64,000 nucleotides of DNA from Acidobacteriota bacterium. GTDB lineage: Bacteria; Acidobacteriota; Blastocatellia; RBC074. The stretch covers positions 2,532 to 66,531 of the forward strand of contig JADJLO010000035.1 in NCBI GenBank assembly GCA_016710075.1, read 5' to 3'. Numbering within the stretch: position 1 is the first letter of the stretch; each line of letters begins with the position of its first letter. Shown here one piece after another: positions 36,456-53,340 of this stretch. The position numbers and the translations under genes were made by a program. Below the pieces are notes generated by a model. That model had not been told where the DNA came from, searched no databases, and worked only from the letters and a program-made list of their open reading frames with translations.

Positions 36456-37500
36456 CCGCCCGCAGTGGACCAGCGAAAATGGGGTCAGACTCAACGAGAA
36501 GACCCACACGGCCGAGTTCACTCCGGTTGGGCTCAATGCCCTTTACGCGCTCGATACCGAAATGCTGCTGCAGATCGCCCGCGAACTCGGCCTTACAGAA
36601 GATGCTGAAAAGCTCCGCGCCCGATACTCGTCGCTCAAGACAAAGATCAATGCCGATCTATGGAGCGAGGAGGACGGTCTCTATCTCAACAAGGACTGGG
36701 ATGGAAAATTCTCTCGCCGAATCTCGCCTGAAAATTTCTATCCATTGATTGCCGGGTTGCCGGATGAAGGCCGGGCAAAACGCATGATGGAAACTCTGCG
36801 CCGGGCCGACAAACTCTGGGGTGAAACCATTATCCCAACCATCTCCCGCGATGATGCAGCATTCTCGGCACAGACTGTGGGTCGTGGCGCAATCTGGTCT
36901 TTGATGAACTACCTTTTATATCAGGGCCTGAGGCGGTATGCCTTCAACGATCAGGCAGGCGAACTCGCCGCGAAAAGCAACCTGCTGTTTCGGACCCAAT
37001 GGGAAAAGACCGGCAGAGCGTATGATCACTTCTCGAGCGACGACGGCAAGCCGGTCGATCCCGAACAGCCATCTATGCACCAGTCCATTCCCGGCCTGAT
37101 GCTGTGGCCTGCGATCGAGGAGATCATCTATGCCGATCCCTGGGCAGGTTTTTCAGTTGGGAGCGTCAAGGCAGCCAATGAGTCGCGGCTTGACCGGATC
37201 AGATTCGGCGGCTTCATCAACGATATCATCTCGGGCCCCAAACGGACCGTCATCCGCAGATCGGGCAAAACCGAAGTCGAATGCGAAGGCCCCGTCAGGC
37301 TGAGATCATTTCGCAGCACCGAGGCTGTTACGGCTTTTGCAATTGAATCGGGCGCGCAGGTCCGCGTTCTGATTCCGGCAATCGAGGGAAGAAAGATCAC
37401 CGTCTCTGTCGATGACATAATCATCGGCAGCACCGCCCCGGGGGCTCCAGCCAGCTTTAAAGTCCCCGCAGGTCAACACAGAGTCTTCATCGTAAAATGA
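36196..37500 (+). CDS. GH63-like glycoside hydrolase, C-terminal catalytic (alpha/alpha)6 part
   Basis: ...GLNALYALDTEMLLQIARELGLTEDAEKLRARYSSLKTKINADLWSEEDGLYLNKDWDG...TVGRGAIWSLMNYLLYQGLRRY...; last 55 codons duplicated at 52955-53090. Confidence 0.6.
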   Translation: MAHLACGKYILLPAISACWQMPFHGCLNGMTGGWPIAGTDRHGETAILTGCLNWATIRNLNSARLCARSVPAPVQLKQAFSESGLADRPQWTSENGVRLNEKTHTAEFTPVGLNALYALDTEMLLQIARELGLTEDAEKLRARYSSLKTKINADLWSEEDGLYLNKDWDGKFSRRISPENFYPLIAGLPDEGRAKRMMETLRRADKLWGETIIPTISRDDAAFSAQTVGRGAIWSLMNYLLYQGLRRYAFNDQAGELAAKSNLLFRTQWEKTGRAYDHFSSDDGKPVDPEQPSMHQSIPGLMLWPAIEEIIYADPWAGFSVGSVKAANESRLDRIRFGGFINDIISGPKRTVIRRSGKTEVECEGPVRLRSFRSTEAVTAFAIESGAQVRVLIPAIEGRKITVSVDDIIIGSTAPGAPASFKVPAGQHRVFIVK

Positions 37501-37755
37501 AGGGGAAGAATGGAGAATGGAGAATGAAGAATGGAAGACTGAGTGGGAATCTGCAAGACCTCAACAGATATTCCCCATTCTGCATTCTGCATTCTTCATT
37601 CTTCATTCTTCAACATCTCGGCGGGAAGACCGGGACGATGAGGGTCGCAGCCTGAGTCAGCGTCAGCTGATTCAGGTTGTGGCTCTGGCTGAAAGCTCCC
37701 GACTGAGCATTCGAGTTCTCGTTGAGGTTGATGATCGCCCACAGGTTATGCCTCG
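37337..37755. repeat. ~420-bp direct repeat, copy 1 (3' end of GH63 gene + heptamer hairpin + 3' end of a convergent ORF)
   Basis: ~90% identical to 52955-53340; begins at tttgcaattgaatc, ends gttgaggttgatga(t/c)cgccc. Confidence 0.8.
37505..37610. repeat. Heptamer-repeat hairpin (GAATGGA/GAATGAA)n ... (CATTCTG/CATTCTT)n between convergent genes
   Basis: gaatggagaatggagaatgaagaatggaaga...ccccattctgcattctgcattcttcattcttcattcttc; likely bidirectional terminator. Confidence 0.6.
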
Positions 37756-38209
37756 CTCTCGTCAACTGGTCGTTAGCCCTCGCGTGGCAGATACGCATAC
37801 GCTGCTGCGCCGACAATGAGACAGGCGAGGGCCACAATGTCAGCGGCGTACACACGACCAACCTGTGCGTTGTAGCTACCGATCGACCAAGCCAGATAGA
37901 GGATGACAGCTCGCTGACGAAGCCTGCGACAAACGAAGCCAGTTGGTAGCCGGGCCGAAAGGCGGCATACAGCAGAAATGCGCCAAGGAGACCGAACAGA
38001 ACCGCTCGATGGCGCATTAGGATTGCCAGGTTCGGGTCATCGAACGAGAGGCCATAGGGCACGCTCAACCGTGCACCTCCAGGCACGCTGAGCATTGCCG
38101 GCGCAAGGAATGCTTGAATTATAAGGCTTTTCTGCGCCGGCATTGCGAGGGAAGCGAAACTGGCGGTATGTTTTTTCGCCGCCAGTTGAGCCGTTCCCTG
38201 CAAGCGCAT
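37610..38209 (-). CDS. Hypothetical protein; C-terminal 45 aa is a paralogous copy of the C-terminus of the giant surface protein (53206-53340)
   Basis: ...[40 protein letters not shown] vs ...[40 protein letters not shown]; upstream part hydrophobic, uncertain. Confidence 0.3.
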   Translation of the reverse strand: MRLQGTAQLAAKKHTASFASLAMPAQKSLIIQAFLAPAMLSVPGGARLSVPYGLSFDDPNLAILMRHRAVLFGLLGAFLLYAAFRPGYQLASFVAGFVSELSSSIWLGRSVATTHRLVVCTPLTLWPSPVSLSAQQRMRICHARANDQLTRARHNLWAIINLNENSNAQSGAFSQSHNLNQLTLTQAATLIVPVFPPRC

Positions 38210-38374
38210 GTTGGATCCTTTTTGGGAATCAATTAGTCAATAATAGCTCACAACTTTTCTGGCCAAATAACTTTGAACTTTTTGGAGCATTTCCAGTAAC
38301 TATGTTTCCATCTACTATCACACCCGGGCCAGTATATTTTGCGCCCTTGCTGCTGACGCTGGTGCCGACGAAGC

Positions 38375-41300
38375 CTATTTCACCTCGACTTTGCGCGCCG
38401 TTCCTTCCTTGAGGTTCAAATCGAGATACCGGTCGGCGGCAACGTTCGCGACCTTCACCTTTCTGCCACCAGGCAGCCGCACTTCGAGATTCACGCGGCC
38501 GATTTTCCCCAGCCCAAAGTGCGCTTCGAGGGCGCTGCTCGATTTGTAACCCTGGTTCGAATAGATGCCGCGCATGCCCAGCAGCCGGTTTGTCCCGGGT
38601 TCGCGCACTTCGACGCTCGCGCCGAGGAGTTGCGCATCGCTGACACCGGAGAATCGCACTCGCAACCAGTGATTTTCGCGCGCACCGCGAGTGCCAGCGT
38701 TCATAAAGACCATGCTTTCGTAGCGGTGCGGGTCGCTGGCAACCCCCGTGTTGTCCGGGTCGGCGGCAATAATCAAATCGAGCAGGCCGTCGTTATTGAG
38801 GTCGGCCGCCGCGCCGCAGATGCCCGTGCCGTTGAGTCCGGAGATGGTGGTCGGCTGCGGCTCGAATGTCCCATCGCCGCGATTCAGAAACAGGAACGAG
38901 CGTGTTTCAATCGCCGGCGACTCCAGCCGGTCAAAGACGACGATGTCGAGCCAGCCATCGTTGTTGAAGTCGGCAAAAACGGCATCGGAATACAAGGCCC
39001 GATTGTCGAACGGGTTCTTCGGCGTCAATCCGGGCTGCGAGCGAATCTTCCGCGCCGCAGGGTTGAAGGCCTTTATGGCGTCGCTGGGTGCGGCATCGAA
39101 GAAAGCAAACCACTCACGGTAGCTCTGATTGAGTCGCGCCAGTCCGGACTTTGCGGTGGCTTCCTCGAAACGAAAGCCGCCGCGGTTATACCAGAACCGC
39201 GCGCCCACATCCTCTGTCGCGGGCCGATTGAATGGATCGCCACCGCCCACGGCTAGCGCGTCGAGCAACCCATCGTTGTTGACGTCGCCGAAAAAAAGAT
39301 ACGGCAGGCCCGGCGCCCGCGCTTCGGTCATCGGCACGAGCCGCTCCACATTGCGATCGTAGCGCAGCCGGGCCTCACAGGCGAACCCGTTGTCCGTGAC
39401 TTTCTCGAACTGAAACCGGCCCGACTCGGCGAGAAGATTTCGCCAGTTGAAAATGCCATGCCGATACTCCGCCGGCGAGAAAGGCAGCGTCGGCGGCTGC
39501 GCGGCGATGAGCAGCACGTGTGTGCTTTGAATCAGGTCCAGGTCGCCGTCATTGTCGATGTCACGCAGCGCGAGATTGGGCCCTGCTTTGTCCCGCGCGC
39601 TGTCGTGGTAAAAGCCGCCGAAGTCCGGGATGAGGTCCGTGCCGCCGATGTCTGTAAACCTCCCGCCCGCGAACTTTCCATCCTTCGGCTGGAAGACGAG
39701 CAGCGCCGATTTCGGCAGTCCCTCGAAGGCATTCACGATATTGTCTGCCCCGAGTGCGATGTCGATGAAGCCGTCGCGATTCACATCGCCCAGGCTCACC
39801 TGACGGTTGTAGGCCATTTCATTGAGCGCGCCGTATTCGACGGAGACATCGCGGAACCGGTCGAGACGACCGTCGCTCAGAAAAAGGCTGCAGCCAACAG
39901 GCTTGAAACCCTCGCGAATCTTTCCGTTGCTCATCGGCGCTTGCCGCGTGATGAATATATCGAGCAACCCGTCACCGTTGAAATCGGCCAGCGCCGGCAC
40001 CTGCCCGCCGCGCCATCCCTGACTGAGGTCATCCGGGGTGGCCGCCGATCCAGTGAGCGTCACGGCCTGCGCCTGGAGACGAAATCCGCCGAAGTTCAGC
40101 AGCAGCCGCAGCTTGTCCTTGGGATTGCGGGTGCGTTTGACACCGCCGGTCTCATCGGCCCACGTCGCGTCGAGGGCGAAGGGTTCCGTGGTAACGGTCA
40201 GAATGTCGAGGTAGCCGTTCTTATCAAAATCGCCGAGTGCAAACCCGTTCAGCCCTTCGCGAAAATCCGTAAAGCCCGGAACATGAATCGCCTCGAACAT
40301 CTGCCCGGTGCCCGCCGCGTCGCGAGTGGCGTCGCTATCCGGGAGCGCCTTCAATTTGCCCGGCGCGTTGTCCGATGCTGGCTTCGAAGCAGGTGGCTGG
40401 TTCTGCGGCACTGACGGCTTCGTCACGGCGGAAGGCTTCATCGGGTGCTTTTGGAAAAACTCCCACATCAGATCGTTGGCCAAGATGTCCTTGGTGGACT
40501 TGCCCAGCCAGGCAGGCGGCTCCATCCCGGGCCAGGTGTGACCGCCGCCTTCGATTTCGATCAGCACGACCTCCGTGCCGTCCTTGCCACCGCCCCACGT
40601 CTTGCGCGTGACGCGCATACCGTCGTCGGCCTTGTCCGGCAACGCAACAATCTCCGGCTTGTCATTGCAGCCGTTCGCCTTGACCCAGTTCTGAATGGAG
40701 TGGTCCACCGATTTGAAGTCGGTCACGCCCTTGGCACCTGCCGCTCCTTTGCCGAAGCCACCATTGAACGGCGCGAACTCATCCGCTGTACCGTGAAAGT
40801 GCATAACGGAAACAGCGCGCCGCGGGCGGCAGGCATCCATCATCAACGGGCCGCCAACCGGCGCGATGGCGGCGATACGATCGGACAACTCTGACGCGAG
40901 GTAATACGCCATGATGCCGCCATTGGAGAGGCCTGTGGCGAAGACGCGGTTGGTGTCCACGTTCGCGACCTTCGCCAAATCGTCCAGCAACGCGCGGGTG
41001 AAGCCGACATCGTCGATCTTGTTCTGCATGGCATAGGCGCAGCAACCACCGCCGTTAAAGGTCAACCTGTTGTTGTCCAGCGCACCCGTGCCAAAGGGAT
41101 ACACAACAATGAACCCGGCCTCTTCCGACTTTGTATTCATACCCGAGAGACGCACCATGCTCTCGGGATTGCCACCACCTCCGTGGAACACCAGGATGAC
41201 AGGCGTGGGACGATCGGCAGCGTATTTCTTCGGCACATGCACCAGGTAGCGGCGCTGTAAACTGCCAACGGTAACCGTTCGTGTGTGCTCGCCCGGTTCC

Positions 41301-41422
41301 AATATTCCCTGGCCGCTGCGATCGAGGCCGCTGCCGGCCGGCCGCGCCACTTCCTCCGCCATGAGTGTCACGCCGGTGAGAATGACTAACAAGCTGATGA
41401 TGGTGGTGATGGTTGTTTTCAT
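38375..41422 (-). CDS. CRTAC1-family protein: N-terminal PHB-depolymerase-like esterase + FG-GAP/VCBS repeats + C-terminal ASPIC/UnbV domain
   Basis: Signal peptide MKTTITTIISLLVILTGVTLMA; LQRRYLVHVPKKYAADRPTPVILVFHGGGG...GLSNGG (esterase); many DxNxDGxxD FG-GAP repeats; C-terminal HWLRVRFSG... Confidence 0.75.
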   Translation of the reverse strand: MKTTITTIISLLVILTGVTLMAEEVARPAGSGLDRSGQGILEPGEHTRTVTVGSLQRRYLVHVPKKYAADRPTPVILVFHGGGGNPESMVRLSGMNTKSEEAGFIVVYPFGTGALDNNRLTFNGGGCCAYAMQNKIDDVGFTRALLDDLAKVANVDTNRVFATGLSNGGIMAYYLASELSDRIAAIAPVGGPLMMDACRPRRAVSVMHFHGTADEFAPFNGGFGKGAAGAKGVTDFKSVDHSIQNWVKANGCNDKPEIVALPDKADDGMRVTRKTWGGGKDGTEVVLIEIEGGGHTWPGMEPPAWLGKSTKDILANDLMWEFFQKHPMKPSAVTKPSVPQNQPPASKPASDNAPGKLKALPDSDATRDAAGTGQMFEAIHVPGFTDFREGLNGFALGDFDKNGYLDILTVTTEPFALDATWADETGGVKRTRNPKDKLRLLLNFGGFRLQAQAVTLTGSAATPDDLSQGWRGGQVPALADFNGDGLLDIFITRQAPMSNGKIREGFKPVGCSLFLSDGRLDRFRDVSVEYGALNEMAYNRQVSLGDVNRDGFIDIALGADNIVNAFEGLPKSALLVFQPKDGKFAGGRFTDIGGTDLIPDFGGFYHDSARDKAGPNLALRDIDNDGDLDLIQSTHVLLIAAQPPTLPFSPAEYRHGIFNWRNLLAESGRFQFEKVTDNGFACEARLRYDRNVERLVPMTEARAPGLPYLFFGDVNNDGLLDALAVGGGDPFNRPATEDVGARFWYNRGGFRFEEATAKSGLARLNQSYREWFAFFDAAPSDAIKAFNPAARKIRSQPGLTPKNPFDNRALYSDAVFADFNNDGWLDIVVFDRLESPAIETRSFLFLNRGDGTFEPQPTTISGLNGTGICGAAADLNNDGLLDLIIAADPDNTGVASDPHRYESMVFMNAGTRGARENHWLRVRFSGVSDAQLLGASVEVREPGTNRLLGMRGIYSNQGYKSSSALEAHFGLGKIGRVNLEVRLPGGRKVKVANVAADRYLDLNLKEGTARKVEVK

Positions 41423-42297
41423 TGTTTCTCCTTCAGAGCTGTCCGCGTAGAACGAATCGGTGTTGCCGTTTGCGTCCATGATAAGTCACGGAGGAATGGC
41501 GCCTGCAATACGGCATCCTCGTAAAACGGCCTCGGCGCCCAGGTACTTTTCAACGTCATGTGATTACTGCCCATGCTGTGTAGCCAGTAACCTGGCAGAT
41601 TGGCAAAACGCGCGTGGGGACTGCGGATGACTTCCAGCTTGCCGGTCTGCCGCGTCGCGCCTGTTGTGGCGGCGCCACGTAATGAAGCGGGCACGGCGGC
41701 GCGCCATCCCTCTTTCAGTGTCTTGCGCATTTCGGCCAATACCGGCGCGGCTTTCGGATCATTGACCAGATTGGTGAATTCGTGTGGATCGGTCTGATGA
41801 TCGTAAAGCTCCGCCGTCATTTCATCGCCCCACTCAGTGTAGCGGTAACGCTCCGTGCGCACACTTCGCCCCATCAGGTTACGCCGCGCGAGCGTTGTGA
41901 ACGCCGCTTTCTTCCACGCCTGTTTGGGATTGTCGAGCAACCGCGCGAAGCTCAGGCCTTCGACACCCACGGGCGCGGGCAAGCCGCAGAGTTCCGCCAG
42001 CGTCGGATAGATATCCACGAATTCCACGAGTCGTGGTGAAACAACATTCGCGCGTTTTTTCGGCGCGACAACAATCAGCGGCGCGCGGGCGCATTCTTCA
42101 AACAGTGTCAGCTTGCGCCACAGGCCGCCGTGTTCGCCCAGGTGAAAACCGTGATCGCCGATGAAAACGATGATCGTGTTGTCGCTCAGCTTCAACCGAT
42201 CCAGCGTGTCGAGCAGAATCCCGACTCCGGCATCCATCAGCGAAGTCGCCGCGTGATAGGCTGCGATGGCCTGCCGCCGTTGCGCGTCGGTCAACAC
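41419..42297 (-). CDS. Sulfatase, C-terminal part
   Basis: ...NTIIVFIGDHGFHLGEHGGLWRKLTLFEECARAPLIVVAP...; tail of ORF is out-of-frame extension overlapping the next gene. Confidence 0.75.
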   Translation of the reverse strand: MLTDAQRRQAIAAYHAATSLMDAGVGILLDTLDRLKLSDNTIIVFIGDHGFHLGEHGGLWRKLTLFEECARAPLIVVAPKKRANVVSPRLVEFVDIYPTLAELCGLPAPVGVEGLSFARLLDNPKQAWKKAAFTTLARRNLMGRSVRTERYRYTEWGDEMTAELYDHQTDPHEFTNLVNDPKAAPVLAEMRKTLKEGWRAAVPASLRGAATTGATRQTGKLEVIRSPHARFANLPGYWLHSMGSNHMTLKSTWAPRPFYEDAVLQAPFLRDLSWTQTATPIRSTRTALKEKQ

Positions 42298-42317
42298 CTC
42301 ATCGCCGGAATGATGCG

Positions 42318-43169
42318 TCAGCGCAGGCGCGGGAATGTCGGCGCGGTCATTGGCGGGTGTGGCGGGAAGCGGCGCATGGCCTGCGGATAAAGGTCAAAAT
42401 ACTTTTTCGGCGCGATCCACGGCAGGTGCGGTTTGTGAAATCCGGCGGCGATGAAAAACGGTTTGTCCTGGTTCGCTTCGAGCAATTTGGCCACGCGGCG
42501 CGCCGTATTGCCGTCGGGTTCGTCTTCGTCTTTGGTGTTGGTCGCCCGCCAGGTGAGCGGCACGCCGCCTTCATCGCCGGGCTTGAGTTGCTTGAGCAGG
42601 GCGTCGCGCGACAGCCCCGTGCGCCCGCGATAATTCATCCGCTCGGCATCCGGCGGTTTGGTGCGGTCAGCCACTTCCGACCCGTCTTCGTCGGGCACGA
42701 AATAGGCCGACGGGTCAGCGTCTTCCGATACATCCCACGAAACCAGGCTGTTGTAAGTGTCGTGCGGAATCTTGCCGATGCGCGCGGTGAAATAGCCGTG
42801 CTGTTTGAAGTATTCCGGCAACATCACTACGTCTTTCAGATTCGTGCGCGGGTCGGTGGCATTGTTGTAGATGCGCGTCGTTTCGGGGCGGCGGCCGCTC
42901 AGGAATGACGTGCGCGACGGGCTGCACAACGGATACTGGCAATAGGCGCGGTCGAATTTGACGCCGCGTTTGGCGAGCCGGTCGAGATTGGGCGATTTGG
43001 TGATCGCGTCGCCGTAGGTGCTGAGCGAAGTGTTCAGATCATCGGCGACGATGAACAGCACATTCAGCTTTTTCGTTTGTGGCTGTGCGACAGTGCGCTG
43101 AAGCGCGACACCAGCACAGAGGGCGAGGATGGAAAGAAACGCAGCGGATAATTTTAAGATCTTTTGCAA
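42318..43169 (-). CDS. Sulfatase (Cys-type, formylglycine motif), N-terminal part; frameshift ~42300-42360
   Basis: Signal peptide; LNVLFIVADDLN...CQYPLCSPSRTSFLSGRRP (C-x-P-x-R). Confidence 0.8.
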   Translation of the reverse strand: MQKILKLSAAFLSILALCAGVALQRTVAQPQTKKLNVLFIVADDLNTSLSTYGDAITKSPNLDRLAKRGVKFDRAYCQYPLCSPSRTSFLSGRRPETTRIYNNATDPRTNLKDVVMLPEYFKQHGYFTARIGKIPHDTYNSLVSWDVSEDADPSAYFVPDEDGSEVADRTKPPDAERMNYRGRTGLSRDALLKQLKPGDEGGVPLTWRATNTKDEDEPDGNTARRVAKLLEANQDKPFFIAAGFHKPHLPWIAPKKYFDLYPQAMRRFPPHPPMTAPTFPRLR

Positions 43170-45837: not shown

Positions 45838-47410
45838 CCGAGAACTGTGTCACCCGATTATTAAAGCGCGTCACACCCGCGTTGAAATGCGCGACTACGC
45901 GCGGCGAGGCCGTCCAGACGTAATCCAGCACCAGCGACACCGGACGGTTTGTTACAAACGGACCGCCCTGCGTTCCGGCGATGGAGCCAGGAAACGGCCC
46001 GGCGTTCTCAGTGGAATTGAAATCCTTGATGATGCGCCCGTAAACCAGGTGTTTCTGCGAGAGGTTGTAATCCAGCCGCACGACCATCTGATTTTCAGTA
46101 TTGGAAATGGGCGAATTCACGACGTAGTTATTGGTGAAGCCCGCGCGATTTGGCAGCGGATAATAGGCCGCGAGGTTGCGCCCGACGACATTCTGCTGTG
46201 CCCGGGGAATCACGTTGTTCGCAAAAACAATGCGCGATCCGGCGCCGGGCTGCCCGGCAGCCACCAGCGCGCCCGGCACGTAAATCATCCCAACGCGCGC
46301 CGGAATCAAGGCCCCGCTCGTGTCGCGCACATTGACGCCTGTAATCGCCGCGCCGAGCAGTTCAGAAAAATCGCCGTCGCGTTGTTTAAGTGTCGGCACA
46401 TTCGATTGCCGCAACTGCGCCTGCCGCACGCGCAACGCCTCATAGTTGAAAAAGAAAAACAACTTGTCGGATTTCTTCACCGCTGGGCCACCCGTGCCAA
46501 AGCGCGGCAGATAGACGGGGCCACCCAGATTGCCGCCGAATTGGTTGAAGCGGAATTTGCTTTTTTGCAAGCCCGTCTGATTGACGAAAAAATTAGTGGC
46601 ATCCAACGCATCATTGCGCAGAAATTCAAACAGCGTCCCACGCACTTTTGTCCCGCCCGAACGCACCGAAAAGTTGAGCGAGCCGCCGCCCGTGCGCCCG
46701 TATTCCGACGAGTACGAATTGGTGATGATGCGGAATTCCTGAATCGCTTCGGGTGAGGGCCGCAAACTCGGCAGGTTGTCGGCTTTGTTTGTGACCGGCA
46801 CGCCGTCCACCACGATTTCATTCGTCAGCGTGCGTCCGCCATTAATCGAAAGTTCGCCGACGCCGCCTGCGCCTAGACTGGGAATCGCGCTGCGCGATCC
46901 CGGCGAACTGCTGACCCCTGCTTCGAGCTGAGCGAGCTGAAAGACATTGCGCCCGTTCAACGGCAAATCGTCTATCTGTGTCCGTTGCACGACCCCGCCG
47001 AGCGCGCCCGACGCCGTGTCGAGTTGCAATGAGGCTTCGCTGGCGGTCACGGTGATAGTGTCGGTGATGTTCCCGGGTTGCAGCACGATATTTAGCTCAG
47101 CGTTTTGCGCAACAGCCAGCTCAAATCGTTCAAGCTTGTAGCTCTTGAATCCTTGCGCCTGCACTTCCAGCGAGTAGCCGCCAGTTTCCAGGAAAGTGAA
47201 GTTGTATTGGCCATCGCCTCTAACAGCAAAGGTGCGTTTCAGCCCGGTCGAGGCCTGAATCAAAGTCACGGTCGCGCCAGGGGTGACGTTTCCAGTGCCG
47301 TCAGCCACCGTGCCTCTGAGCGTAGCCGTGGCCGTTTGCGCGAAGCCGGCGCTGGTTAAGCCAACCAGCAAGAACAACGTAACAAGGACGAATTTATCCA
47401 GTTTAGACAT
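45698..47410 (-). CDS. TonB-dependent receptor with N-terminal carboxypeptidase-regulatory-like domain, N-terminal part (frameshift ~45700-45840)
   Basis: Signal peptide MSKLDKFVLVTLFLLVGLTSAGFAQTATATLRGTVAD...; plug region DDLPLNGRNVFQLAQLEAGV... Confidence 0.8.
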   Translation of the reverse strand: MSKLDKFVLVTLFLLVGLTSAGFAQTATATLRGTVADGTGNVTPGATVTLIQASTGLKRTFAVRGDGQYNFTFLETGGYSLEVQAQGFKSYKLERFELAVAQNAELNIVLQPGNITDTITVTASEASLQLDTASGALGGVVQRTQIDDLPLNGRNVFQLAQLEAGVSSSPGSRSAIPSLGAGGVGELSINGGRTLTNEIVVDGVPVTNKADNLPSLRPSPEAIQEFRIITNSYSSEYGRTGGGSLNFSVRSGGTKVRGTLFEFLRNDALDATNFFVNQTGLQKSKFRFNQFGGNLGGPVYLPRFGTGGPAVKKSDKLFFFFNYEALRVRQAQLRQSNVPTLKQRDGDFSELLGAAITGVNVRDTSGALIPARVGMIYVPGALVAAGQPGAGSRIVFANNVIPRAQQNVVGRNLAAYYPLPNRAGFTNNYVVNSPISNTENQMVVRLDYNLSQKHLVYGRIIKDFNSTENAGPFPGSIAGTQGGPFVTNRPVSLVLDYVWTASPRVVAHFNAGVTRFNNRVTQFSDGFDLTTLGFPAYLAKGLRRYTCLSEHHRGGLHHARPDARLWQRAE

Positions 47411-47431
47411 GTTGATGGAACCTCCTGAAAC

Positions 47432-48169
47432 CTATATTCGGCTGCGTTGCGCAGCTTTCACGGGGCGACCTTTGCCTCCCCTTAGCGTTGTCGTAGTTTG
47501 GGCGACGGCACGCAAGCGCGCGCGCGTCGTTGGGCGCAAAAGCGCAGCCAGCGCAGCTTTGGTGAACTCTTCGACCATCTGTTCGCGCGTCAACCGGCCA
47601 GCAGAACTGTACCAGCGCGCCAGCCAGTGCAATTGGCCGATCAGATTCTGTGTGGCAATCGTGACATCCAGATCATGTAATTTGCCTTCAGTTTTGAGGC
47701 GCTCAATGATCCCGCGCACGAATTGGTAATAGCGCCGCCGCCGCGCTGCGACTTTACGTAAATCGTCTTTCGCCAACCCATTGCTTTCGTCCAGCAAAAT
47801 GGTCATTTCCATCCCGTTATCAATGATCAATTGCGTATTCAGTGTGATGACGGAACGTAATTGCTGTTCGGCATCCGGCAACAGCGCTGAGGGCGCCATC
47901 ACTCTGTTTTCCAGCAGTTCCAGGCGATAACTCATGATCTTGAAGAGCAGACTCTGTTTGCCATCAATGTAATGATACAAACCGCCCTTCGTGACGCCGA
48001 CCGCATCCGCGATGTCCTGCAACGAGGTCGCGTCATAGCCCTTTTCGTGGATAACGCGCGCGGCGGTTTGGTAAATCAGCAACAGGCGATCATCTTCTCC
48101 CAGCCGCGACAGTTTTATGGGCGCGCCAGTTTTGCCGGCCAAATTGGTTTCCCGCAAGCTCTTCCTCAT
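47432..48169 (-). CDS. TetR-family transcriptional regulator
   Basis: N-terminal HTH ...LLLIYQTAARVIHEKGYDATSLQDIADAVGVTKGGLYHYIDGKQSL. Confidence 0.85.
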   Translation of the reverse strand: MRKSLRETNLAGKTGAPIKLSRLGEDDRLLLIYQTAARVIHEKGYDATSLQDIADAVGVTKGGLYHYIDGKQSLLFKIMSYRLELLENRVMAPSALLPDAEQQLRSVITLNTQLIIDNGMEMTILLDESNGLAKDDLRKVAARRRRYYQFVRGIIERLKTEGKLHDLDVTIATQNLIGQLHWLARWYSSAGRLTREQMVEEFTKAALAALLRPTTRARLRAVAQTTTTLRGGKGRPVKAAQRSRI

Positions 48170-48215
48170 TTCACAGGTTGTTTTGCCGAAGGTGTCTTAA
48201 CTTCATATTTCTACT

Positions 48216-48246
48216 TGTTGGTAGAAAAAACCAACCGGTTGGTAGA
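48216..48246. promoter_or_regulatory. Candidate TetR operator: TTGGTAG-aaaaaa-CCAACCGGTTGG-TAG (12-bp perfect palindrome) just upstream of the TetR gene
   Basis: Perfect palindrome CCAACCGGTTGG at 48231-48242; the whole promoter segment is duplicated at 50400-50545 with two copies of the palindrome. Confidence 0.45.
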
Positions 48247-48356
48247 ATTATACCAAAAAACGAAAGGCGTCAAGCCGGAACCTCGATTGGCAAGGTAACT
48301 CCTATTACTATACCAAGCGCGGGCATAAATTGAGCATTTGAGGAATCTTTCGTAGC

Positions 48357-48679: not shown

Positions 48680-49969
48680 TCATTGTTGTACACGCGCCAG
48701 ATCAGTGCCGTAACGGCGCGCGGCCAGCCACGCCGGAATGGCGGCAGTGAATCCGATGCAGGCGCAAATCAACAACCCGCGCCACAGGCTTTCGCGGTCG
48801 CCAATTGCACCCGATACCAGTGGCCCTAGTCCCGTGCCGAGCAAATTCAGCGCGAGCAATAAAAACGCCACGGCAGTCGAACGAATGCGTGCGGGCGTCA
48901 AATCCTGCACGGTCGCAAAGACGGGGCCGTACCACATGGTGCTGCCCAGACTCGAAAAGAACCAGCAAACGTAAAACAAATAAAAGGGCGTTTCGGTTGA
49001 GAGCGTATAAAACAGCAGCGTGAACGGCATGAAACACAAAACATTGGCGACGAGAAACCACATGCGCCCGCCGACCCAGCGCCGCTGAAACCAATCGCTG
49101 ACGTACCCGCCCAGGATCGTGCCGAGCATACCGGCGACGGTAAAGATGCTGGCGCTGGTGAAAGCGGCCTGTTGATAGGTAAAGCCGCGTTCGAGGTTGA
49201 GCCACGTCAGCACCATGCTCGAAGCACTGAAGGAGAAGCTGATGATCACGCCCGCCAGAATCGCCAACAACAACGCAGGCATGCGGCGTAAGGTCTGAAA
49301 TAGTTCGCGGTAAATCTCGCGCGTCGTCAATGCTGCTTCGGCTTCGGCTTTGGTATGGAAGGGTTCGGCTCGTTCCGCCGCTTCGGCCTGCCCGCGCTGC
49401 GGATTGCGAATCATCCGCACTAGCGGCACGAGCAACAGCCCCAGCACGCCCAACACGTAAAAGCATGCGCGCCAGCCATAACGCGGCGCGATGTAACCCG
49501 CAATCAGCATGCTCACGCCCGAACCCAACGGCACGCCTGCGTAATAAAACCCCGAAGCGAACGCGCGCTTTTTCGGCGGGAAAACATCGCCTAGCAACGA
49601 GACCGCGGCCGGTGCCAGCGTCGCTTCGCCCACGCCAACGAGCAGGCGCGCCATGGTCAGGTGCAGAAAATTCACCGCCGCGCCCGATGCTGCTGTCAAC
49701 GCGCTCCACAACGCCAGGCCTCCGGCCATCAGGCGCGGGCGATTCATGCGATCTGCCGCGTTGCCCAGCACTATCCCCATCAAGGTATAAAACGCCAGAA
49801 AGATGTAGCCGTACAGCAGCGCAATTTTCGCCAGTGACAGACCCAGCTCCGCCCGCAACAGCGGGGCCAGATAGACGATCAATTGCCGGTCAATAAAGTT
49901 GATGACGTTGAGCAGTGTCAGAAAGAACAACAGCCCATACGCCTTGCGGCTGGAATAGTGATGATCCAT
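48680..49969 (-). CDS. MFS transporter
   Basis: 429 aa, 12 predicted TM, MFS motif GxxADRMNRPRL between TM2-3. Confidence 0.85.
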   Translation of the reverse strand: MDHHYSSRKAYGLLFFLTLLNVINFIDRQLIVYLAPLLRAELGLSLAKIALLYGYIFLAFYTLMGIVLGNAADRMNRPRLMAGGLALWSALTAASGAAVNFLHLTMARLLVGVGEATLAPAAVSLLGDVFPPKKRAFASGFYYAGVPLGSGVSMLIAGYIAPRYGWRACFYVLGVLGLLLVPLVRMIRNPQRGQAEAAERAEPFHTKAEAEAALTTREIYRELFQTLRRMPALLLAILAGVIISFSFSASSMVLTWLNLERGFTYQQAAFTSASIFTVAGMLGTILGGYVSDWFQRRWVGGRMWFLVANVLCFMPFTLLFYTLSTETPFYLFYVCWFFSSLGSTMWYGPVFATVQDLTPARIRSTAVAFLLLALNLLGTGLGPLVSGAIGDRESLWRGLLICACIGFTAAIPAWLAARRYGTDLARVQQ

Positions 49970-50162
49970 AAAGATATTCGATGCAGTTGAGGGAACGGTA
50001 GCGACCTGGCGACTGTGCGTTGTTCACATCCAGAGTCACTGTATCACTTGTATGTTGAGTTCCAACACCGCGCGCTACAACGCGCCGGTGAACTTCCTGG
50101 GGGCACTTGGGAAAGGTGATGGCAGCAATCTGACAGGTCGCTGTCGCCTTTGAGCCTGAGCG

Positions 50163-50402
50163 TTAGATGCAGGCTGCCATCACCAGACGTACTGCCAAGC
50201 TCGGACGGTATCGCATGACTAGACGCAGCGGAGTCCAAGTCTGAATCGGCAAGAACGAAGTCGCGTCATACCCTTTTTCATGAATCGAGGGCGTCGCTGT
50301 TTGATAAATCAGCAAGAGGCGATCATCTTCTCCCAACCGCGACAGTTTAACCGGCGCGCCAGTTTTGCTGGCCCAATTGGTTTCCCGCAATCTCTTCCTC
50401 AT
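50163..50402 (-). pseudogene. Duplicated 5' fragment of the TetR gene (~50 codons) with duplicated promoter/operator (50443-50475)
   Basis: MRKRLRETNWASKTGAPVKLSRLGEDDRLLLIYQTA... vs MRKSLRETNLAGKTGAPIKLSRLGEDDRLLLIYQTA... of 47432-48169; CCAACCGGTTGG at 50443-50454 and 50464-50475. Confidence 0.6.
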
Positions 50403-50679
50403 TTCACAGGTTATTTTGCCGAAGATGTCTTAACTTCATATTCCAACCGGTTGGTAGAAAAAACCAACCGGTTGGAATAATTATACCAAAAGTCCAAAAC
50501 CGTCAAGCCGGAACCTCGATTTGCAAGGTAACGCCTATTACTAAGTGTGCGCCACGCAGGTGGATAGCCCCACGGTCTGGTCAGCGCCGTTCTGAGTCGG
50601 TGGGCAGGCAAAACGCAATACGCCTCCGGGCAGGAAATGATGCCGCTGCGCACGCTGGCGATTGGCCGGGAAAGGACTT

Positions 50680-51480
50680 TTATCCAATTCTAGCCGTTTG
50701 TCCGCCATCCACTGGCAAGATCGCCCCAGTAATAAATTGCGCTTCATCCGACGCCAGAAACAGCGCCGCATACGCCACATCCCAGGCCGTGCCCATTTTG
50801 CCGCGTAAGGGTACCTGCGCATCGCGTTCGCGGATGAGTTGGTCTTCGCTGATCTGCCGTGCGCACGACTGGCCTTTGATTGCCATCGGCGTATGGATCA
50901 AACCCGGCATGATCGCATTCACTCGGATGCCGTATTTGGCGTTGGCCATCGCCAGCCCTTGTGTCAAGGCGTTGACTCCGGCTTTGGAGATTTTGTAGGC
51001 CATCAGCCCAATCGAACAGACGGCAGCCACGGACGAAATGTTGATGATGCAACCGCTGCCTTGTTCTCGCATTACCGGCACAGCTTCGCGGCAAGCGAGA
51101 AACATGCTTTTGAGATTTACGTCCATCACCCTGTCCCACGCCGCTTCGGTCAATTTTGTCAGTCCGGCTTCGCCGACGCCAACGCCGACGCCAACGTTGT
51201 TGTGGAGAATATCTATGCGGCCATAAGTGGCGAGGGCGGTTTCGACGAAGGCGCGGCAAGCGGCGGCGCGCGTGACATCGGCGGCAACGGCGTAGCACTT
51301 GCCGCCTTCGGCTTCGATCATCGTTTGCGTTTCGCGCGCCGAGGCGAGATCACGGTCTACGAGGACGACGCGGGCGCCTTCGCGCGCAAACAGGATGGCC
51401 GTGGCGCGTCCGTTGCCGATAGTATCGCCCGGCATTTGCCCTGCGCCGGTCACGATGGCGACTTTATCCTGAAGCCTCAT
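50680..51480 (-). CDS. Short-chain dehydrogenase/reductase (SDR)
   Basis: Start MRLQDKVAIVTGAGQ...; NNVG...YKISKAG (YxxxK); the ORF-track N-terminal extension is spurious. Confidence 0.85.
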   Translation of the reverse strand: MRLQDKVAIVTGAGQMPGDTIGNGRATAILFAREGARVVLVDRDLASARETQTMIEAEGGKCYAVAADVTRAAACRAFVETALATYGRIDILHNNVGVGVGVGEAGLTKLTEAAWDRVMDVNLKSMFLACREAVPVMREQGSGCIINISSVAAVCSIGLMAYKISKAGVNALTQGLAMANAKYGIRVNAIMPGLIHTPMAIKGQSCARQISEDQLIRERDAQVPLRGKMGTAWDVAYAALFLASDEAQFITGAILPVDGGQTARIG

Positions 51481-52031
51481 GACGGGAATCCTTCCTTGTC
51501 TTCTTCCAATTGCACGCCGATGGAATTCAGCACCAGCGCCAGCATCTGGTATTGGCCGACGGTGAAGAGCAGGTCGAGCATTTGTTGTGTGTGGTAACGC
51601 GCTGTCAGTGCCTGCCAGACAACATCGCTGAGCCGCGCGGCGGCGTGCAATTCGTCCACTGCCCGCAATAGCGTGGCATCGAATGCAGCCCAGTCGGCGG
51701 CTTCCGGCCCTTGCGTGACGCGCAAAATTTCCTCGTCGGTCAGCCCGGCATCCCGACCGATTTGCGAATGCTGGCCCCATTCGTATTCACCACGTTGCAA
51801 CCACGCGATGCGCAGAATCAGCAGTTCACGCTCACGCGCGGGCAGCGAGGATTTGTTGAGCAGATGCCCGCCGAAAACACGCCAGCGTTTGAGCAGTTTC
51901 GGGTGATGCGCGAGCGTCCTGAAAATATTCAGGATGCGGTCGCCCCGTCTGGCCTCCTCCATCAATTCGCGTGTTTCTTCGTCCCATTGCGTTTCGGGCA
52001 GCGGCGCGATGCGCGGCGTTTTCAGTTCCAT
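51477..52031 (-). CDS. Carboxymuconolactone decarboxylase (CMD/AhpD-like) family protein
   Basis: 184 aa; ...ARERELLILRIAWLQRGEYEWGQHSQIG... Confidence 0.65.
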   Translation of the reverse strand: MELKTPRIAPLPETQWDEETRELMEEARRGDRILNIFRTLAHHPKLLKRWRVFGGHLLNKSSLPARERELLILRIAWLQRGEYEWGQHSQIGRDAGLTDEEILRVTQGPEAADWAAFDATLLRAVDELHAAARLSDVVWQALTARYHTQQMLDLLFTVGQYQMLALVLNSIGVQLEEDKEGFPS

Positions 52032-52155
52032 TACATTACCTCCGTGAAAGTGTATTTCTGCTCCTGCGCCTGTTTGAGCAACGCGGCGGGTTCCGACAAT
52101 TTGCCGCTCTCCATCACATACGCGATCTTCTGCGTGTTGCTGATGCTTCGTAGCG

Positions 52156-52300
52156 TCATCGACTCATTAAGGGCACGCGATCGGAAGCGTATTTCTTCGG
52201 CACATGCACCAGGTAGCGGCGCTGTAGTTCGCCGACGGTAATCGTGCGCCACGGCTCAGCGGCCCGATGCGTGGGCGAGACTTTTGCACGCAGCAAAAGG
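52156..52300 (-). pseudogene. Fragment of a paralogous CRTAC1/esterase gene 5' end
   Basis: RTITVGELQRRYLVHVPKKYA and nucleotide match (gcgtatttcttcggcacatgcaccaggtagcggcgctgta) to 41216-41260. Confidence 0.55.
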
Positions 52301-52954
52301 CGTGAACACTTGTTGGGTCCGTTAAAGCAACTGGTTGGGCGGGATGTCGCTACGCTCAAGTGGTCGTGTCCAAGTCAGTGAATAGCGCCATCCGGTACTC
52401 AACGCCTGGAAGCAAACGTTCAGCAGTACGGCATATCTCAGTGTAACTCACTGATGTTACGCATTATTCTTTCTCGCCCATTGAGCCAAGGTTTTCGGAT
52501 CAATTCTATTCCTGAGCCTATCTCTTATGCCTTGTCGAGCCGGATTTGTCTTCGACGATTGGCACCAAACTCAGTGCAACCCGAAATTCAGGCCTAAATA
52601 TCGAAAAGGGTTCTTTGCTTTTGTGTGAGCCCTGGCTCGCGGCTTGATCGTTATGGCTAGTCTAAGAGTGGCCGCCCCTGCGTTAGCTGAAAAAAGTAGC
52701 ATCGAGTAAAAATACTTAAAATGAAAATTACATTCGACAAAAGGACGTTACGCCCGAGCCATCGAGTTGTCCATTATTATTTTCAACTTGTGTCCTACCA
52801 AAATAGAAACGTCCCCTAAGACAAAGAAGGACTAGATCTTTTCGCTTTTGGGGATGCGGGCCAAGTCTGGGGAGACAATCGATCGCGCTCCAATCCGCTG
52901 ATCCTGGCCAACGACAGGTTCGCCTTTGCAATTGAATCAGGCGCGCAGGTCCGC

Positions 52955-53340
52955 GTTCTGATTCCGGCAGTCGAGGGAAGAAAGATCACCGTCTCCGTCG
53001 ATGACATAATCATCGGCAGCACCGCCCCGGGGGCTCCAGCCAGCTTTAAAGTCCCCGCAGGTCAGCACAGAGTCTTCATTGTAAAATGAAGGGGAAGAAT
53101 GGAGAATGGAGAATGGGGAATATCTGTTGAGGTCACAGATGCTTCCCATTCTTCGTTCTACATTCTTCATTCTACATTCTTCATTCTTCCTTCATTCTTC
53201 ATTCTTCAGCATCTCGGCGGGAAGACCGGGATGATCAGGGTTGCAGCCTGAGTCAGCGTCAGTTGATGCAGGTTATGGCCCTGGTTGAAGGCTCCGGATT
53301 GGACATTCGAGTTCTTGTTGAGGTTGATGACCGCCCCGAA
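52955..53340. repeat. ~420-bp direct repeat, copy 2 (orphan GH63 3' fragment + heptamer hairpin 53098-53205 + true 3' end of giant gene)
   Basis: See copy 1 at 37337-37755. Confidence 0.8.

What the first reader, a model, noticed from the sequence alone, without database searches (positions are those of the whole stretch)
37337..53340. ~15-kb GC-richer block bracketed by ~420-bp direct repeats; looks like an inserted or rearranged islet between a glycosidase gene and the giant surface-protein gene
The repeat holds the last 55 codons of the GH63 gene, a heptamer hairpin, and the last 45 codons of the giant gene on the other strand. Copy 1 sits next to the intact GH63 gene plus a remnant of the surface-protein C-terminus. 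Copy 2 sits next to an orphan GH63 3' fragment plus the intact giant gene. Recombination between the copies would recreate a simple convergent pair, GH63 then the giant gene. The enclosed DNA is compositionally different (roughly 60-65% GC against 52-57% outside). It carries accessory-type genes (CRTAC1 esterase, sulfatase, TonB receptor, TetR, MFS, SDR, CMD). It also holds several fragments: a beta-lactamase stub at 43182-43592, a TetR 5' duplicate with its operator at 50163-50545, a CRTAC1 5' stub at 52156-52300, and an AT-rich ORF-less 650-bp stretch at 52300-52950. No integrase is visible.
Basis: seen in the sequence. Interest (0 to 1): 0.6.

Follow-up and report, generated by a model that had tools for sequence, protein, structure and literature searches.

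The report
Integrase-less gene islet, duplicated junction
A real 15-kb patchwork of accessory uptake and hydrolase genes sits between a glycosidase gene and a giant surface-protein gene of a wastewater acidobacterium, bracketed by two diverged copies of the original 415-bp gene junction; it is an ordinary recombination-built genomic islet, not a mobile element and not an assembly error.

Summary
A 415-bp direct repeat (37333-37740 and 52922-53336) consists of the GH63 3' end, a heptamer hairpin and the last 45 codons of the giant gene. It brackets 15.2 kb of minus-strand accessory genes and gene scars.

It is not an assembly artefact. Two other long-read MAGs of the same Blastocatellia species are collinear across both repeats. 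A further long-read MAG contig and four short-read contigs carry the right junction.

Empty sites exist in distant relatives. Five species have GH63 directly convergent with a homologue of the giant gene, and 14 have GH63 convergent with UGDH. None carries block genes there.

There is no integrase, IS or tRNA. The block is a mosaic. One part is a Blastocatellia-type CMD-SDR-TetR-TonB receptor-beta-lactamase cluster, 86-93% nt identical to another MAG, interrupted by an MFS segment. The other part is a sulfatase plus esterase-FG-GAP/ASPIC pair whose homologues outside Acidobacteriota are named mostly as Planctomycetes/Verrucomicrobia/Lentisphaerae-group (PVC) bacteria.

Repeat divergence looks allelic rather than like in-situ decay. 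That favours homology-assisted integration of DNA from a diverged relative.

All frameshifts here are 1-nt assembly indels. The "CRTAC1 5' stub" is a 72-nt internal patch.

Verdict: an ordinary genomic islet of low to moderate interest.

The parts
34953..37500 (+). GH63/MGH1-like glycoside hydrolase gene. It is split in this window by a 1-nt assembly indel at 36393.
   Evidence: Pfam PF22422, PF01204, PF03200. tblastn of relatives shows the frame change at about 36388. The gene is intact in sister genomes, 794 aa and 828 aa. Indel located.
37333..37740 (.). Repeat copy R1: the last 55 GH63 codons, the hairpin, and a 45-codon remnant of the giant-gene C-terminus.
37502..37609 (.). Heptamer hairpin 1. 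GAATGGA-type units lie on one arm and CATTCTK units on the other.
   Evidence: Fold -52.9 kcal/mol, z -7.7. The motif occurs only at R1 and R2 in the window.
37741..38229 (-). Unassigned DNA with a membrane-protein-like ORF that runs into the R1 remnant. It has no family match.
38230..38374 (-). 3' fragment of a DJ-1/PfpI gene, a scar immediately after the stop codon of the esterase-FG-GAP gene.
   Evidence: Pfam PF01965, E=3e-4, profile positions 127-164 of 165
38375..41422 (-). PHB-depolymerase-type esterase fused to FG-GAP repeats and an ASPIC/UnbV domain ('CRTAC1 family').
   Evidence: Pfam. Homologues: 99% in the same species, 82% in a Chloracidobacterium MAG, 74% in Lentisphaerae, about 60% in Planctomycetes. 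The domain order is permuted relative to L099, with the breakpoint at 40434/40435.
41419..43169 (-). Sulfatase gene, split here by a 1-nt assembly indel at 42375.
   Evidence: Pfam. It is 583 aa and intact in other assemblies. Indel located.
43370..43592 (-). Beta-lactamase-family 5' stub, a true truncation.
   Evidence: Pfam profile positions 16-90 of 329. L088 has the full 418-aa gene and its nucleotide homology stops at 43370. The same 136-aa ORF is present in IPL01 (L087, L091) and L090.
43789..47410 (-). TonB-dependent receptor (CarboxypepD_reg + Plug + OMP_b-brl_4), split here by a 1-nt assembly indel at 45791.
   Evidence: Pfam. It is 1206 aa and intact elsewhere. Indel located.
47432..48169 (-). 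TetR-family regulator, full length.
   Evidence: Pfam. Homologues at 88% identity in L088.
48021..48310 (-). T1: the first 50 TetR codons plus 141 nt of upstream promoter/operator region. This is the functional copy of the inner repeat.
48680..49969 (-). MFS transporter. In L088 its homologue lies about 3.3 kb upstream of the CMD gene instead of between SDR and TetR.
   Evidence: Pfam. L088 comparison.
50254..50543 (-). T2: a truncated TetR 5' stub (49 codons) with its own copy of the upstream region.
   Evidence: 87.6% identical to T1. The T2-specific changes are 12 synonymous and 6 non-synonymous. Also present in a short-read contig, L089.
50680..51480 (-). Short-chain dehydrogenase (266 aa).
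   Evidence: Pfam. Gene calls in other assemblies.
51477..52031 (-). Carboxymuconolactone-decarboxylase-family (CMD) gene.
   Evidence: Pfam. The identical protein is found on 13 contigs.
52031..52159 (-). 42-aa ORF abutting the CMD start. L088 homology ends about 30 nt upstream of it, at 52189.
52178..52249 (-). 72-nt internal patch of an esterase gene, 89% identical to 41211-41282.
52250..52921 (.). AT-richer (48% GC) ORF-less spacer of unknown origin, essentially invariant among strains.
52922..53336 (.). Repeat copy R2: an orphan GH63 3' fragment, the hairpin, and the functional C-terminus of the giant gene.
53090..53205 (.). Heptamer hairpin 2. Its centre is the exact reverse complement of the centre of the MFD R2 copy, whose core orientation IPL01 R2 shares.
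   Evidence: the alignment shows the same centre in L090-L096
53206..62898 (-). Giant surface-protein gene, about 3,200 aa. It is split here by 1-nt assembly indels at 53708, 55866 and 59346, and probably one more near 62.2 kb.
   Evidence: It is at least 3269 aa and intact in L092.
63028..63941 (-). UDP-glucose dehydrogenase, the backbone neighbour that directly faces GH63 in 14 relatives.

Best explanation
The window comes from a Blastocatellia bacterium (order Pyrinomonadales / MiDAS 11-24) found in Danish activated sludge. Its ancestral layout was GH63 convergent with a large surface-protein gene, separated by a long hairpin.

DNA carrying a diverged copy of that junction was joined into the locus. 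The likely route is one homologous exchange within the 415-bp junction plus one illegitimate join. That could be a Campbell-type single crossover of a circularised fragment, or homology-facilitated illegitimate recombination of a linear fragment. This step is inferred.

The result is two allele-like copies of the junction bracketing 15.2 kb. The cargo is itself a recombination patchwork with no mobility genes:
- a TetR-controlled TonB receptor / SDR / CMD cluster of Blastocatellia type, interrupted by an MFS segment and truncated in its beta-lactamase-family gene;
- a sulfatase plus esterase-FG-GAP/ASPIC pair from a family whose named members outside Acidobacteriota are mostly PVC-group bacteria;
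- several small scars.

The islet is fixed in all sampled strains. A 13-kb tract inside it has recently been homogenised across them.

The genes plausibly add a regulated uptake-and-hydrolysis capacity for sulfated or esterified substrates. This is inferred from the families only.
For: SHOWN. The structure is real. Two other MAGs of the species are collinear over both repeats: GCA_016711965.1 against window 24847-62066, and GCA_963852515.1 against window 28218-62084. The right junction is also present in GCA_016717465.1 and in four short-read contigs from two other projects (L093-L096). A fifth short-read contig (L089) spans SDR-T2-MFS-TetR inside the block.

SHOWN. Empty sites exist. GH63 faces a giant-gene homologue in L033, L038, L040, L043 and L044. 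It faces UGDH in 14 loci. No block genes follow GH63 in any relative.

SHOWN. There is no mobility machinery. Pfam finds no integrase or transposase in any ORF, the unassigned gaps are at most about 700 nt, and there is no tRNA.

SHOWN. The block is a mosaic. L088 has CMD-SDR-TetR-TonB receptor-full beta-lactamase as one contiguous run. The window matches it in three separate pieces at 85-93% nt identity, with a 290-bp overlap that equals the T1/T2 repeat. The esterase-FG-GAP gene has 89% and 83% nt relatives in unrelated contexts.

INFERRED from counts: the repeats are allele-like, not in-situ decay.
- On the T2 branch, synonymous sites changed 12 of about 36 and non-synonymous sites 6 of about 111. 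The T1 branch has only 1 synonymous change.
- The R giant part has dS 0.40 and dN 0.10.
- The orphan GH63 fragment differs from R1 at 3 of 113 nt. The giant remnant differs at 16-24 of 133 nt. That ratio is the same as between present-day alleles of the two gene ends.

SHOWN. Diversity between strains is 0.5-0.6% inside 39.9-52.9 kb, 1.7-3.6% in the left flank, and 1.6-1.8% in the giant gene.
Against: - No donor and no close empty-site strain was found. The nearest genomes outside the species have at most 58% GH63 identity, so the order and timing of events are not observed.
- Gene conversion between R1 and R2 evidently occurs: the window's R2 hairpin and the adjoining ~60 nt look R1-like. That could have erased divergence in the GH63 part and mimicked the allelic pattern.
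- The counts are small (3 to 26 sites).
- The three direct-repeat pairs are nested (R, esterase patch, TetR) and similarly diverged at 86-89%. This would also fit one complex replication-based rearrangement.
- All contigs except L087 were found through block genes, so 'fixed in the species' rests on a biased sample.
- Whether L088 and L099 are close relatives or HGT partners could not be determined.
Confidence: 0.55

Rival explanations
1. In-situ origin. A replication- or repair-based rearrangement was triggered at the long hairpin, by fork stalling and template switching or by tandem duplication followed by deletions. It copied several segments from elsewhere in the same genome into the junction. 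The region around the hairpin was duplicated as a long 'target duplication', and the nested TetR and esterase repeats are by-products.
For: - R is centred on a -52 kcal/mol palindrome.
- The three direct-repeat pairs are nested (R2, C2, T2, T1, C1, R1) and similarly diverged at 86-89%.
- There are at least 6 junctions that cut genes at arbitrary points.
- There are no mobility genes.
Against: - The T2 branch carries 12 synonymous changes against 1 on the T1 branch. It also shows a purifying-selection pattern, which is not expected for a stub that was dead from birth.
- The dead GH63 fragment in R2 differs from R1 by 2.7%. The dead giant remnant in R1 differs from R2 by 12-18%. These should be equal if both were born together.
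- No second copy of the TetR cluster from the same species appeared among the TetR homologues.
- Gene conversion could rescue this model.
Confidence: 0.2
2. The 15 kb is ancestral at this site and was lost in the relatives. The repeats then come from an old local duplication unrelated to any insertion.
For: All sampled conspecific strains carry it. The relatives used for comparison are distant, with 39-58% GH63 identity.
Against: - About 20 species-level relatives in two clades show tight convergent pairs (GH63 with UGDH, or GH63 with the surface protein) and no trace of block genes.
- The orphan GH63 3' fragment next to the giant gene is direct evidence that GH63 and the giant gene were once adjacent.
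- The block's homologues sit in unrelated contexts elsewhere.
Confidence: 0.08
3. A degraded integrative element: a genomic island, ICE or composite transposon whose integrase or transposase has since been deleted, with R as its att-like boundary.
For: It has direct repeats at both ends, accessory cargo, slightly higher GC, and many internal deletions that could have removed mobility genes.
Against: - There is no integrase, transposase, IS end or tRNA.
- The 415-bp repeats are the host's own gene ends plus the intergenic hairpin, not short att cores.
- Much of the cargo is a chromosomal-type Blastocatellia cluster.
Confidence: 0.05
4. Assembly mis-join or strain chimera in a long-read metagenome bin.
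For: The source is a CANU Nanopore MAG with residual indel errors. The window's R2 hairpin region differs by 17% from other strains.
Against: Both junctions recur in two other independently assembled MAGs. The right junction recurs in four MEGAHIT-type (k141/k127) short-read contigs from other samples and projects.
Confidence: 0.02

Closest known systems
Integrase-less genomic islets / flexible genomic islands maintained between conserved core genes
   Same: Lineage-specific accessory genes at a fixed site between conserved genes. Relatives hold different content at that site: nothing, a surface-protein gene, or UGDH. The interior is a mosaic with gene scars, and there is no integrase or tRNA.
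   Different: The bracket here is a 415-bp duplication of the host's own convergent gene ends plus their hairpin. The islet appears fixed rather than variable among the sampled strains.
Campbell-type single-crossover integration, and homology-facilitated illegitimate recombination (one homologous anchor plus one illegitimate join, described for naturally transformable bacteria; recalled from my own knowledge, not checked in the literature here)
   Same: These mechanisms predict exactly this footprint. The insert is flanked by two copies of the homologous segment with sharp outer ends. The copies differ as donor and recipient alleles do.
   Different: No donor, circular intermediate or competence system was examined. 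The mechanism is inferred from the footprint only.
Long target-site duplications and templated insertions from replication template switching (FoSTeS/MMBIR-type events; recalled from my own knowledge, not checked here)
   Same: A multi-segment insert, nested direct repeats, a duplication centred on a strong palindrome, and breakpoints inside genes.
   Different: The duplicates are 3-18% diverged, with unequal and selection-shaped divergence. No source copies were found in the same species.
TetR-linked CarboxypepD_reg/OMP_b-brl_4 TonB-dependent receptor clusters of Acidobacteriota (as in locus L088)
   Same: The CMD-SDR-TetR-receptor-beta-lactamase order is shared, with 86-93% nt identity to L088.
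   Different: In the window the cluster is interrupted by an MFS segment with a 290-bp duplication. It is truncated in the beta-lactamase gene and fused to a sulfatase/esterase module.

Membership tests
Integrase-mediated genomic island / ICE / prophage remnant | Tyrosine or serine recombinase (integrase) gene at one end | tested here: not met
   Pfam on all ORFs of 37.6-53.6 kb finds none. The unassigned gaps are at most ~700 nt.
Integrase-mediated genomic island / ICE / prophage remnant | Insertion into a tRNA/tmRNA gene or other att site, with short att direct repeats | tested here: not met
   No tRNA or tmRNA in the window. The repeats are 415 bp of host gene ends plus a hairpin.
Integrase-mediated genomic island / ICE / prophage remnant | Composition distinct from the host backbone | tested here: inconclusive
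   58.0% GC against 54.0% (p=1e-4). However, GC3 of most block genes falls within the backbone range, and the neighbouring giant gene is 63.9%.
Composite transposon / IS-bounded element | Flanking IS copies with transposase genes and terminal inverted repeats | tested here: not met
   The flanking repeats encode GH63 and giant-gene ends. No transposase domain was found.
Homology-assisted integration (Campbell-type or homology-facilitated illegitimate recombination) | The insert is flanked by direct copies of a segment of the target locus, with sharp outer boundaries | tested here: met
   R1 and R2 are 415 bp, and similarity ends abruptly at 37740 and 52922.
Homology-assisted integration (Campbell-type or homology-facilitated illegitimate recombination) | The two copies differ as alleles of functional genes, not as a copy decaying in place | tested here: inconclusive
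   Giant part: dS 0.40, dN 0.10. GH63 part: 3 of 113 nt differ, the same ratio as present-day alleles. T2 branch: 12 synonymous against 6 non-synonymous changes. Counts are small and gene conversion is evident.
Homology-assisted integration (Campbell-type or homology-facilitated illegitimate recombination) | An identifiable donor lineage or circular intermediate | not testable with these tools
   No genome with GH63 identity between 58% and 90% was found. No reads are available.
Insertion relative to an ancestral empty site | Relatives with the flanking genes directly adjacent | tested here: met
   GH63 faces a giant-gene homologue in 5 species, with 15-110 nt between the genes. GH63 faces UGDH in 14 species.
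Assembly artefact | Junctions absent from independent assemblies | tested here: not met
   Both junctions are present in 2 other MAGs. The right junction is present in 5 more contigs (L090, L093-L096), four of them short-read assemblies.

The most novel reading that the evidence does not exclude
The 415-bp duplication is centred on a -52 kcal/mol heptamer palindrome whose centre flips between strains. The most novel reading is that such long terminator palindromes between convergent genes act as break or stall sites. They would capture multi-segment DNA by template switching and leave a long, transposase-independent 'target duplication'. The nested TetR and esterase repeats would then be footprints of the same single event. 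That would make convergent-gene hairpins a predictable entry point for accessory genes in bacteria that lack obvious mobile elements.
Probability: 0.1. Interest if true: 0.55.

Novelty: new member of a known kind. Interest (0 to 1): 0.25.

Why it matters
It gives a cleanly documented case, in an uncultured Blastocatellia lineage, of how accessory uptake and hydrolase genes enter a chromosome without any mobile-element machinery. The old gene junction is preserved twice, so the pre-insertion state can be read directly and is confirmed by relatives.

It also serves as a caution. Every 'pseudogene' in this window is a 1-nt long-read assembly error, so gene decay should not be inferred from this MAG alone.

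Beyond that it does not change any general picture. Recombination-built islets between core genes are well known.

Tried and rejected
- Single-protein scans for close GH63 relatives in genome contigs and metagenome contigs found nothing. Only an alignment-based scan reached relatives.
- Exact look-ups of the window's esterase-FG-GAP protein and of P0001 found no contig.
- Rfam at gathering thresholds and tRNA search found nothing in the window. An E-value Rfam scan of 52100-53250 gave only sub-threshold microRNA-precursor hits, which reflect a generic long hairpin.
- The promoter/terminator scan of 52000-53300 was at chance level.
- I first read the GH63-part dN/dS (5 synonymous, 1 non-synonymous) as evidence for allelic origin. 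I withdrew it. Population data show that only 3 of those differences separate R1 from R2. The rest are R1 polymorphisms, or lie in a tract where the window's R2 looks converted from R1.
- I considered that the hairpin centres of R1 and R2 had been swapped in this strain. I rejected this. The window's R2 centre is the exact reverse complement of the MFD R2 centre, so it is a simple flip.
- I looked for further decayed GH63 sequence upstream of R2 and for decayed giant-gene sequence beyond R1. Neither exists.
- A first three-way TetR comparison was mis-registered by 12 nt and was redone.

Full report
OBSERVATION

The direct repeat is real. Positions 37333-37740 and 52922-53336 align over 416 columns at 85.8% identity, and similarity stops abruptly at both outer ends.

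The left 165-200 nt are 96% identical. They encode the last 55-61 codons of a GH63/MGH1-like glycosidase, and tblastn with three relatives hits both copies. The right 135-147 nt are 89% identical and encode, on the minus strand, the last 45 codons of the giant gene.

Between them lies a hairpin built of GAATGGA-type heptamers. It folds at about -52 kcal/mol (z about -7). The heptamer motif occurs only at these two places in the window.

The enclosed 15.2 kb is entirely minus-strand. By Pfam it carries an esterase-FG-GAP-ASPIC ('CRTAC1-family') gene, a sulfatase, a beta-lactamase-family stub, a CarboxypepD_reg/OMP_b-brl_4 TonB-dependent receptor, TetR, MFS, SDR and CMD.

No integrase or transposase is present. 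The unassigned gaps are at most about 700 nt, and there is no tRNA or Rfam family.

- GC is 58.0% in the block against 54.0% in the 37-kb backbone (p=1e-4 on 1-kb windows). Only the esterase-FG-GAP gene exceeds 60%. The giant gene outside the block is 63.9%.
- The 'CRTAC1 5' stub' is a 72-nt internal patch (52178-52249 matching 41211-41282) with no start codon and unrelated sequence on both sides.
- There is a further scar: a DJ-1/PfpI 3' fragment directly after the esterase-FG-GAP stop codon.
- GH63, the sulfatase, the TonB receptor and the giant gene are all frame-broken in this window.

SOURCE AND ASSEMBLY QUALITY

The GH63 fragment is 100% identical to MBK7600665.1 (locus tag IPJ07_19985, 'Acidobacteria bacterium', 131,880-bp contig).

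A sister MAG, JADJRY (GCA_016711965.1), is Hade_18-Q3-R52-61_BATAC.287 of Singleton et al. 2021. Its GTDB placement is Blastocatellia, order Pyrinomonadales. Its MiDAS placement is order 11-24, midas_g_1424 (PMC8012365 supplement). That study assembled with CANU from Nanopore reads and polished with racon/medaka and Illumina racon.

I aligned the window to a third genome of the species, GCA_963852515.1. All six frame breaks coincide with single-base indels at 36393, 42375, 45791, 53708, 55866 and 59346. The genes are intact in that genome and/or in others: GH63 794 or 828 aa, sulfatase 583 aa, receptor 1206 aa, giant gene at least 3269 aa. Conversely, the esterase-FG-GAP gene is intact here but split in JADJRY.

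The frameshifts are therefore assembly errors, not decay. The beta-lactamase stub (136 aa in JADJRY and L090 as well) and the TetR stub are genuine.

NOT A MIS-JOIN

JADJRY (L087 and L091 merged) is collinear with window 24847-62066, including R1, the block, R2 and the giant gene. GCA_963852515.1 (L092 and L097 merged) is collinear with window 28218-62084.

The right junction (giant gene, R2, spacer, CMD and onward) is also present in GCA_016717465.1. It is present too in four short-read contigs from other samples and projects, L093-L096. Short-read contig L089 independently shows SDR-T2-MFS-TetR.

EMPTY SITES

No genome outside the species has GH63 identity between 58% and 90%. An alignment-based scan of GTDB species representatives returned 80 loci, and I screened their flanks by tblastn.

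The backbone permease-GRDB-GH63 is conserved in these relatives:
- In 14 loci (GH63 identity 50-58%) GH63 faces UDP-glucose dehydrogenase directly. In the window that gene lies at 63028-63941, beyond the giant gene.
- In five species (39-45% identity; L033, L038, L040, L043, L044) GH63 faces a protein whose last ~295 aa are 48-51% identical to the giant gene's C-terminal domain. It ends ...PVFLPKC against ...PVFPPRC here, and only 15-110 nt separate the two genes.
- None of the relatives carries block genes downstream of GH63.

The orphan GH63 fragment beside the giant gene is a direct relic of it.

THE CARGO IS A MOSAIC

Locus L088 (Blastocatellia MAG GCA_046155425.1) has CMD-SDR-TetR-TonB receptor-full-length beta-lactamase (418 aa) as one contiguous run, with an MFS gene about 3.3 kb upstream of CMD. 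The window matches it at the nucleotide level in separate pieces:

| Window | L088 | Identity |
|---|---|---|
| 52189-50254 | 4814-6743 | 92.7% |
| 48310-43370 | 6454-11375 | 86.5% |
| 49970-48501 | 68-1537 | 85.6% |

The first two pieces overlap by 290 nt in L088 coordinates. That overlap is exactly the T1/T2 repeat. In the window, an MFS segment therefore sits inside the cluster, flanked by a duplicated promoter plus TetR 5' end. The cluster is also cut inside the beta-lactamase gene at 43370.

The sulfatase/esterase-FG-GAP module has different affinities: 99% within the species, 82% to a Chloracidobacterium MAG where the gene stands alone, 74% to a Lentisphaerae protein, and about 60% to Planctomycetes and Kiritimatiellae.

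In contig L099 the FG-GAP/ASPIC part is 89.4% nt identical, but the esterase is a separate downstream gene. The window gene is thus a fusion or permutation with its breakpoint at 40434/40435.

HOW THE REPEATS AROSE

The question is whether the copies were born identical in place, or are two diverged versions brought together.

TetR repeat. With L088 as third taxon, the T2 stub carries 12 synonymous and 6 non-synonymous private changes. T1 has 1 and 1, and L088 has 2 and 3. The 141-nt upstream region is equidistant among the three, with 6, 8 and 6 private changes. A stub that was dead from birth should show about 1 synonymous to 3 non-synonymous changes, and the same synonymous branch length as T1. 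It shows neither. T2 therefore spent most of its divergence as part of a working TetR gene and was truncated late.

Repeat R. The giant-gene part has dS 0.40 and dN 0.10. Across strains, R1 remnants differ from R2 alleles at 16-24 of 133 nt, and R2 alleles differ among themselves by up to 16. The orphan GH63 fragment differs from R1 at only 3 of 113 nt, and functional GH63 ends differ by 2 between strains. The two halves of R are thus diverged in the same ratio as present-day alleles of a conserved and a hypervariable gene end. Two dead fragments of equal age should instead show equal divergence.

I read this as two allele-like copies of the junction brought together by recombination. One exchange would be within the junction and one illegitimate join would be at 52921/52922 or 37740/37741. 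This could be either a Campbell-type single crossover or homology-facilitated illegitimate recombination.

This step is inference. The counts are small. Gene conversion between R1 and R2 clearly occurs: in the window, the last ~50 nt of the R2 GH63 fragment, the hairpin and ~60 nt of the giant-gene end resemble the R1 of other strains. All other strains lack 44 nt there.

The main rival is a single hairpin-triggered template-switch or duplication event. It explains the nesting and the similar divergence of the three repeat pairs. I give it 0.2.

POPULATION PATTERN

Between the window and each of the two sister genomes, substitutions are as follows:

| Region | Substitutions |
|---|---|
| Left flank | 1.7-3.6% |
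| Giant gene | 1.6-1.8% |
| 39870-52921 | 0.49-0.59% |
| 52922-53039 | 0% |
| R1 hairpin region | 5-8% |
| R2 hairpin region (53040-53336) | about 17% |

Short-read strains whose giant-gene 3' kilobase is only 90-96% identical to the window still share the block at 99.4-99.8%.

The low-diversity tract starts inside the esterase-FG-GAP gene and ends at the R2 hairpin. It therefore reflects a later homogenising exchange or sweep among strains that already had the islet, not the original insertion.

FUNCTION (inferred from families only)

The genes suggest a TetR-regulated outer-membrane receptor with an MFS transporter, SDR/CMD redox enzymes, a sulfatase and a secreted esterase-FG-GAP protein. 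Together these point to uptake and processing of sulfated or esterified organic matter. This is plausible for an activated-sludge heterotroph. Nothing here tests it.

VERDICT

The object is a recombination-built, integrase-less genomic islet. It is a new member of a known kind and of modest interest.

Noticed in passing
window 36393, 42375, 45791, 53708, 55866, 59346 (also 38171, 52675): Single-base indels relative to GCA_963852515.1 coincide with every apparent frameshift: GH63, the sulfatase, the TonB receptor and three in the giant gene. Permease and UGDH ORFs outside the block are also split. This is typical residual error of a Nanopore MAG and is not pseudogenisation.
   Followed up: yes
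window 39870-53039: This 13-kb tract has 0.5-0.6% substitutions between strains, against 1.6-3.6% in both flanks. Its edges lie inside the esterase-FG-GAP gene and at the R2 hairpin. It looks like a recent recombination or sweep tract within the islet.
   Followed up: partly
window 37540-37575 and 53110-53150; the corresponding R1 and R2 regions of L087, L090-L097: The hairpin centre is inverted between strains. The window's R2 centre is the exact reverse complement of the MFD R2 centre, and the core orientation is opposite in IPL01 as well. The R1 core orientation is also opposite. Heptamer copy number varies, and all other strains lack 44 nt of the GH63 fragment in R2.
   Followed up: partly
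window 53206-54100 (C-terminal ~300 aa of the giant gene): This is a conserved C-terminal domain with no Pfam match. The last 137 aa hit 640 cluster representatives (E<=1e-3), almost always at the extreme C-terminus of proteins of 500-5800 aa, and sometimes in 2-3 copies. It may be an uncharacterised anchoring or sorting domain of acidobacterial surface proteins. It is also the most variable part of the gene between strains (90-98% nt identity).
   Followed up: partly
window 40434/40435; L099 8046-10127 and 10538-11402: The esterase and FG-GAP/ASPIC parts, fused in the window gene, are two separate genes in the opposite order in a JGI contig (89% and 79% nt identity). This is a gene fusion or domain permutation with a precise breakpoint.
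   Followed up: partly
window 54741-55930: An approximately 582-nt tandem duplication (about 90% identity) inside the giant gene encodes repeated Ig-like/PKD-like modules. Weaker internal repeats lie at 58.8-61.6 kb.
   Followed up: no
L006 1954-3918; also L015 and L019: The UDP-glucose dehydrogenase that faces GH63 carries an intein (PF14890) in one relative. In two others its tblastn match is split by about 1.4 kb. The window's copy has no such insert.
   Followed up: no
window 4077-4229: A ~150-nt imperfect palindrome (71% self-complementary) lies far outside the finding. Its nature is unknown.
   Followed up: no
window 35871-35976 and 39752-39867: Segments of 105 nt and 115 nt are present in the window and in GCA_963852515.1 but absent from JADJRY. 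They lie inside GH63 (794 against 828 aa) and inside the esterase-FG-GAP gene. They are either real in-frame indels or assembly gaps in JADJRY.
   Followed up: no
window 52031-52159: A 42-aa ORF overlaps the CMD start codon by one base. It is called as a gene in three short-read assemblies (L093, L094, L096) and is conserved at the nucleotide level in L088. It may be a real small gene of the CMD-SDR operon.
   Followed up: no
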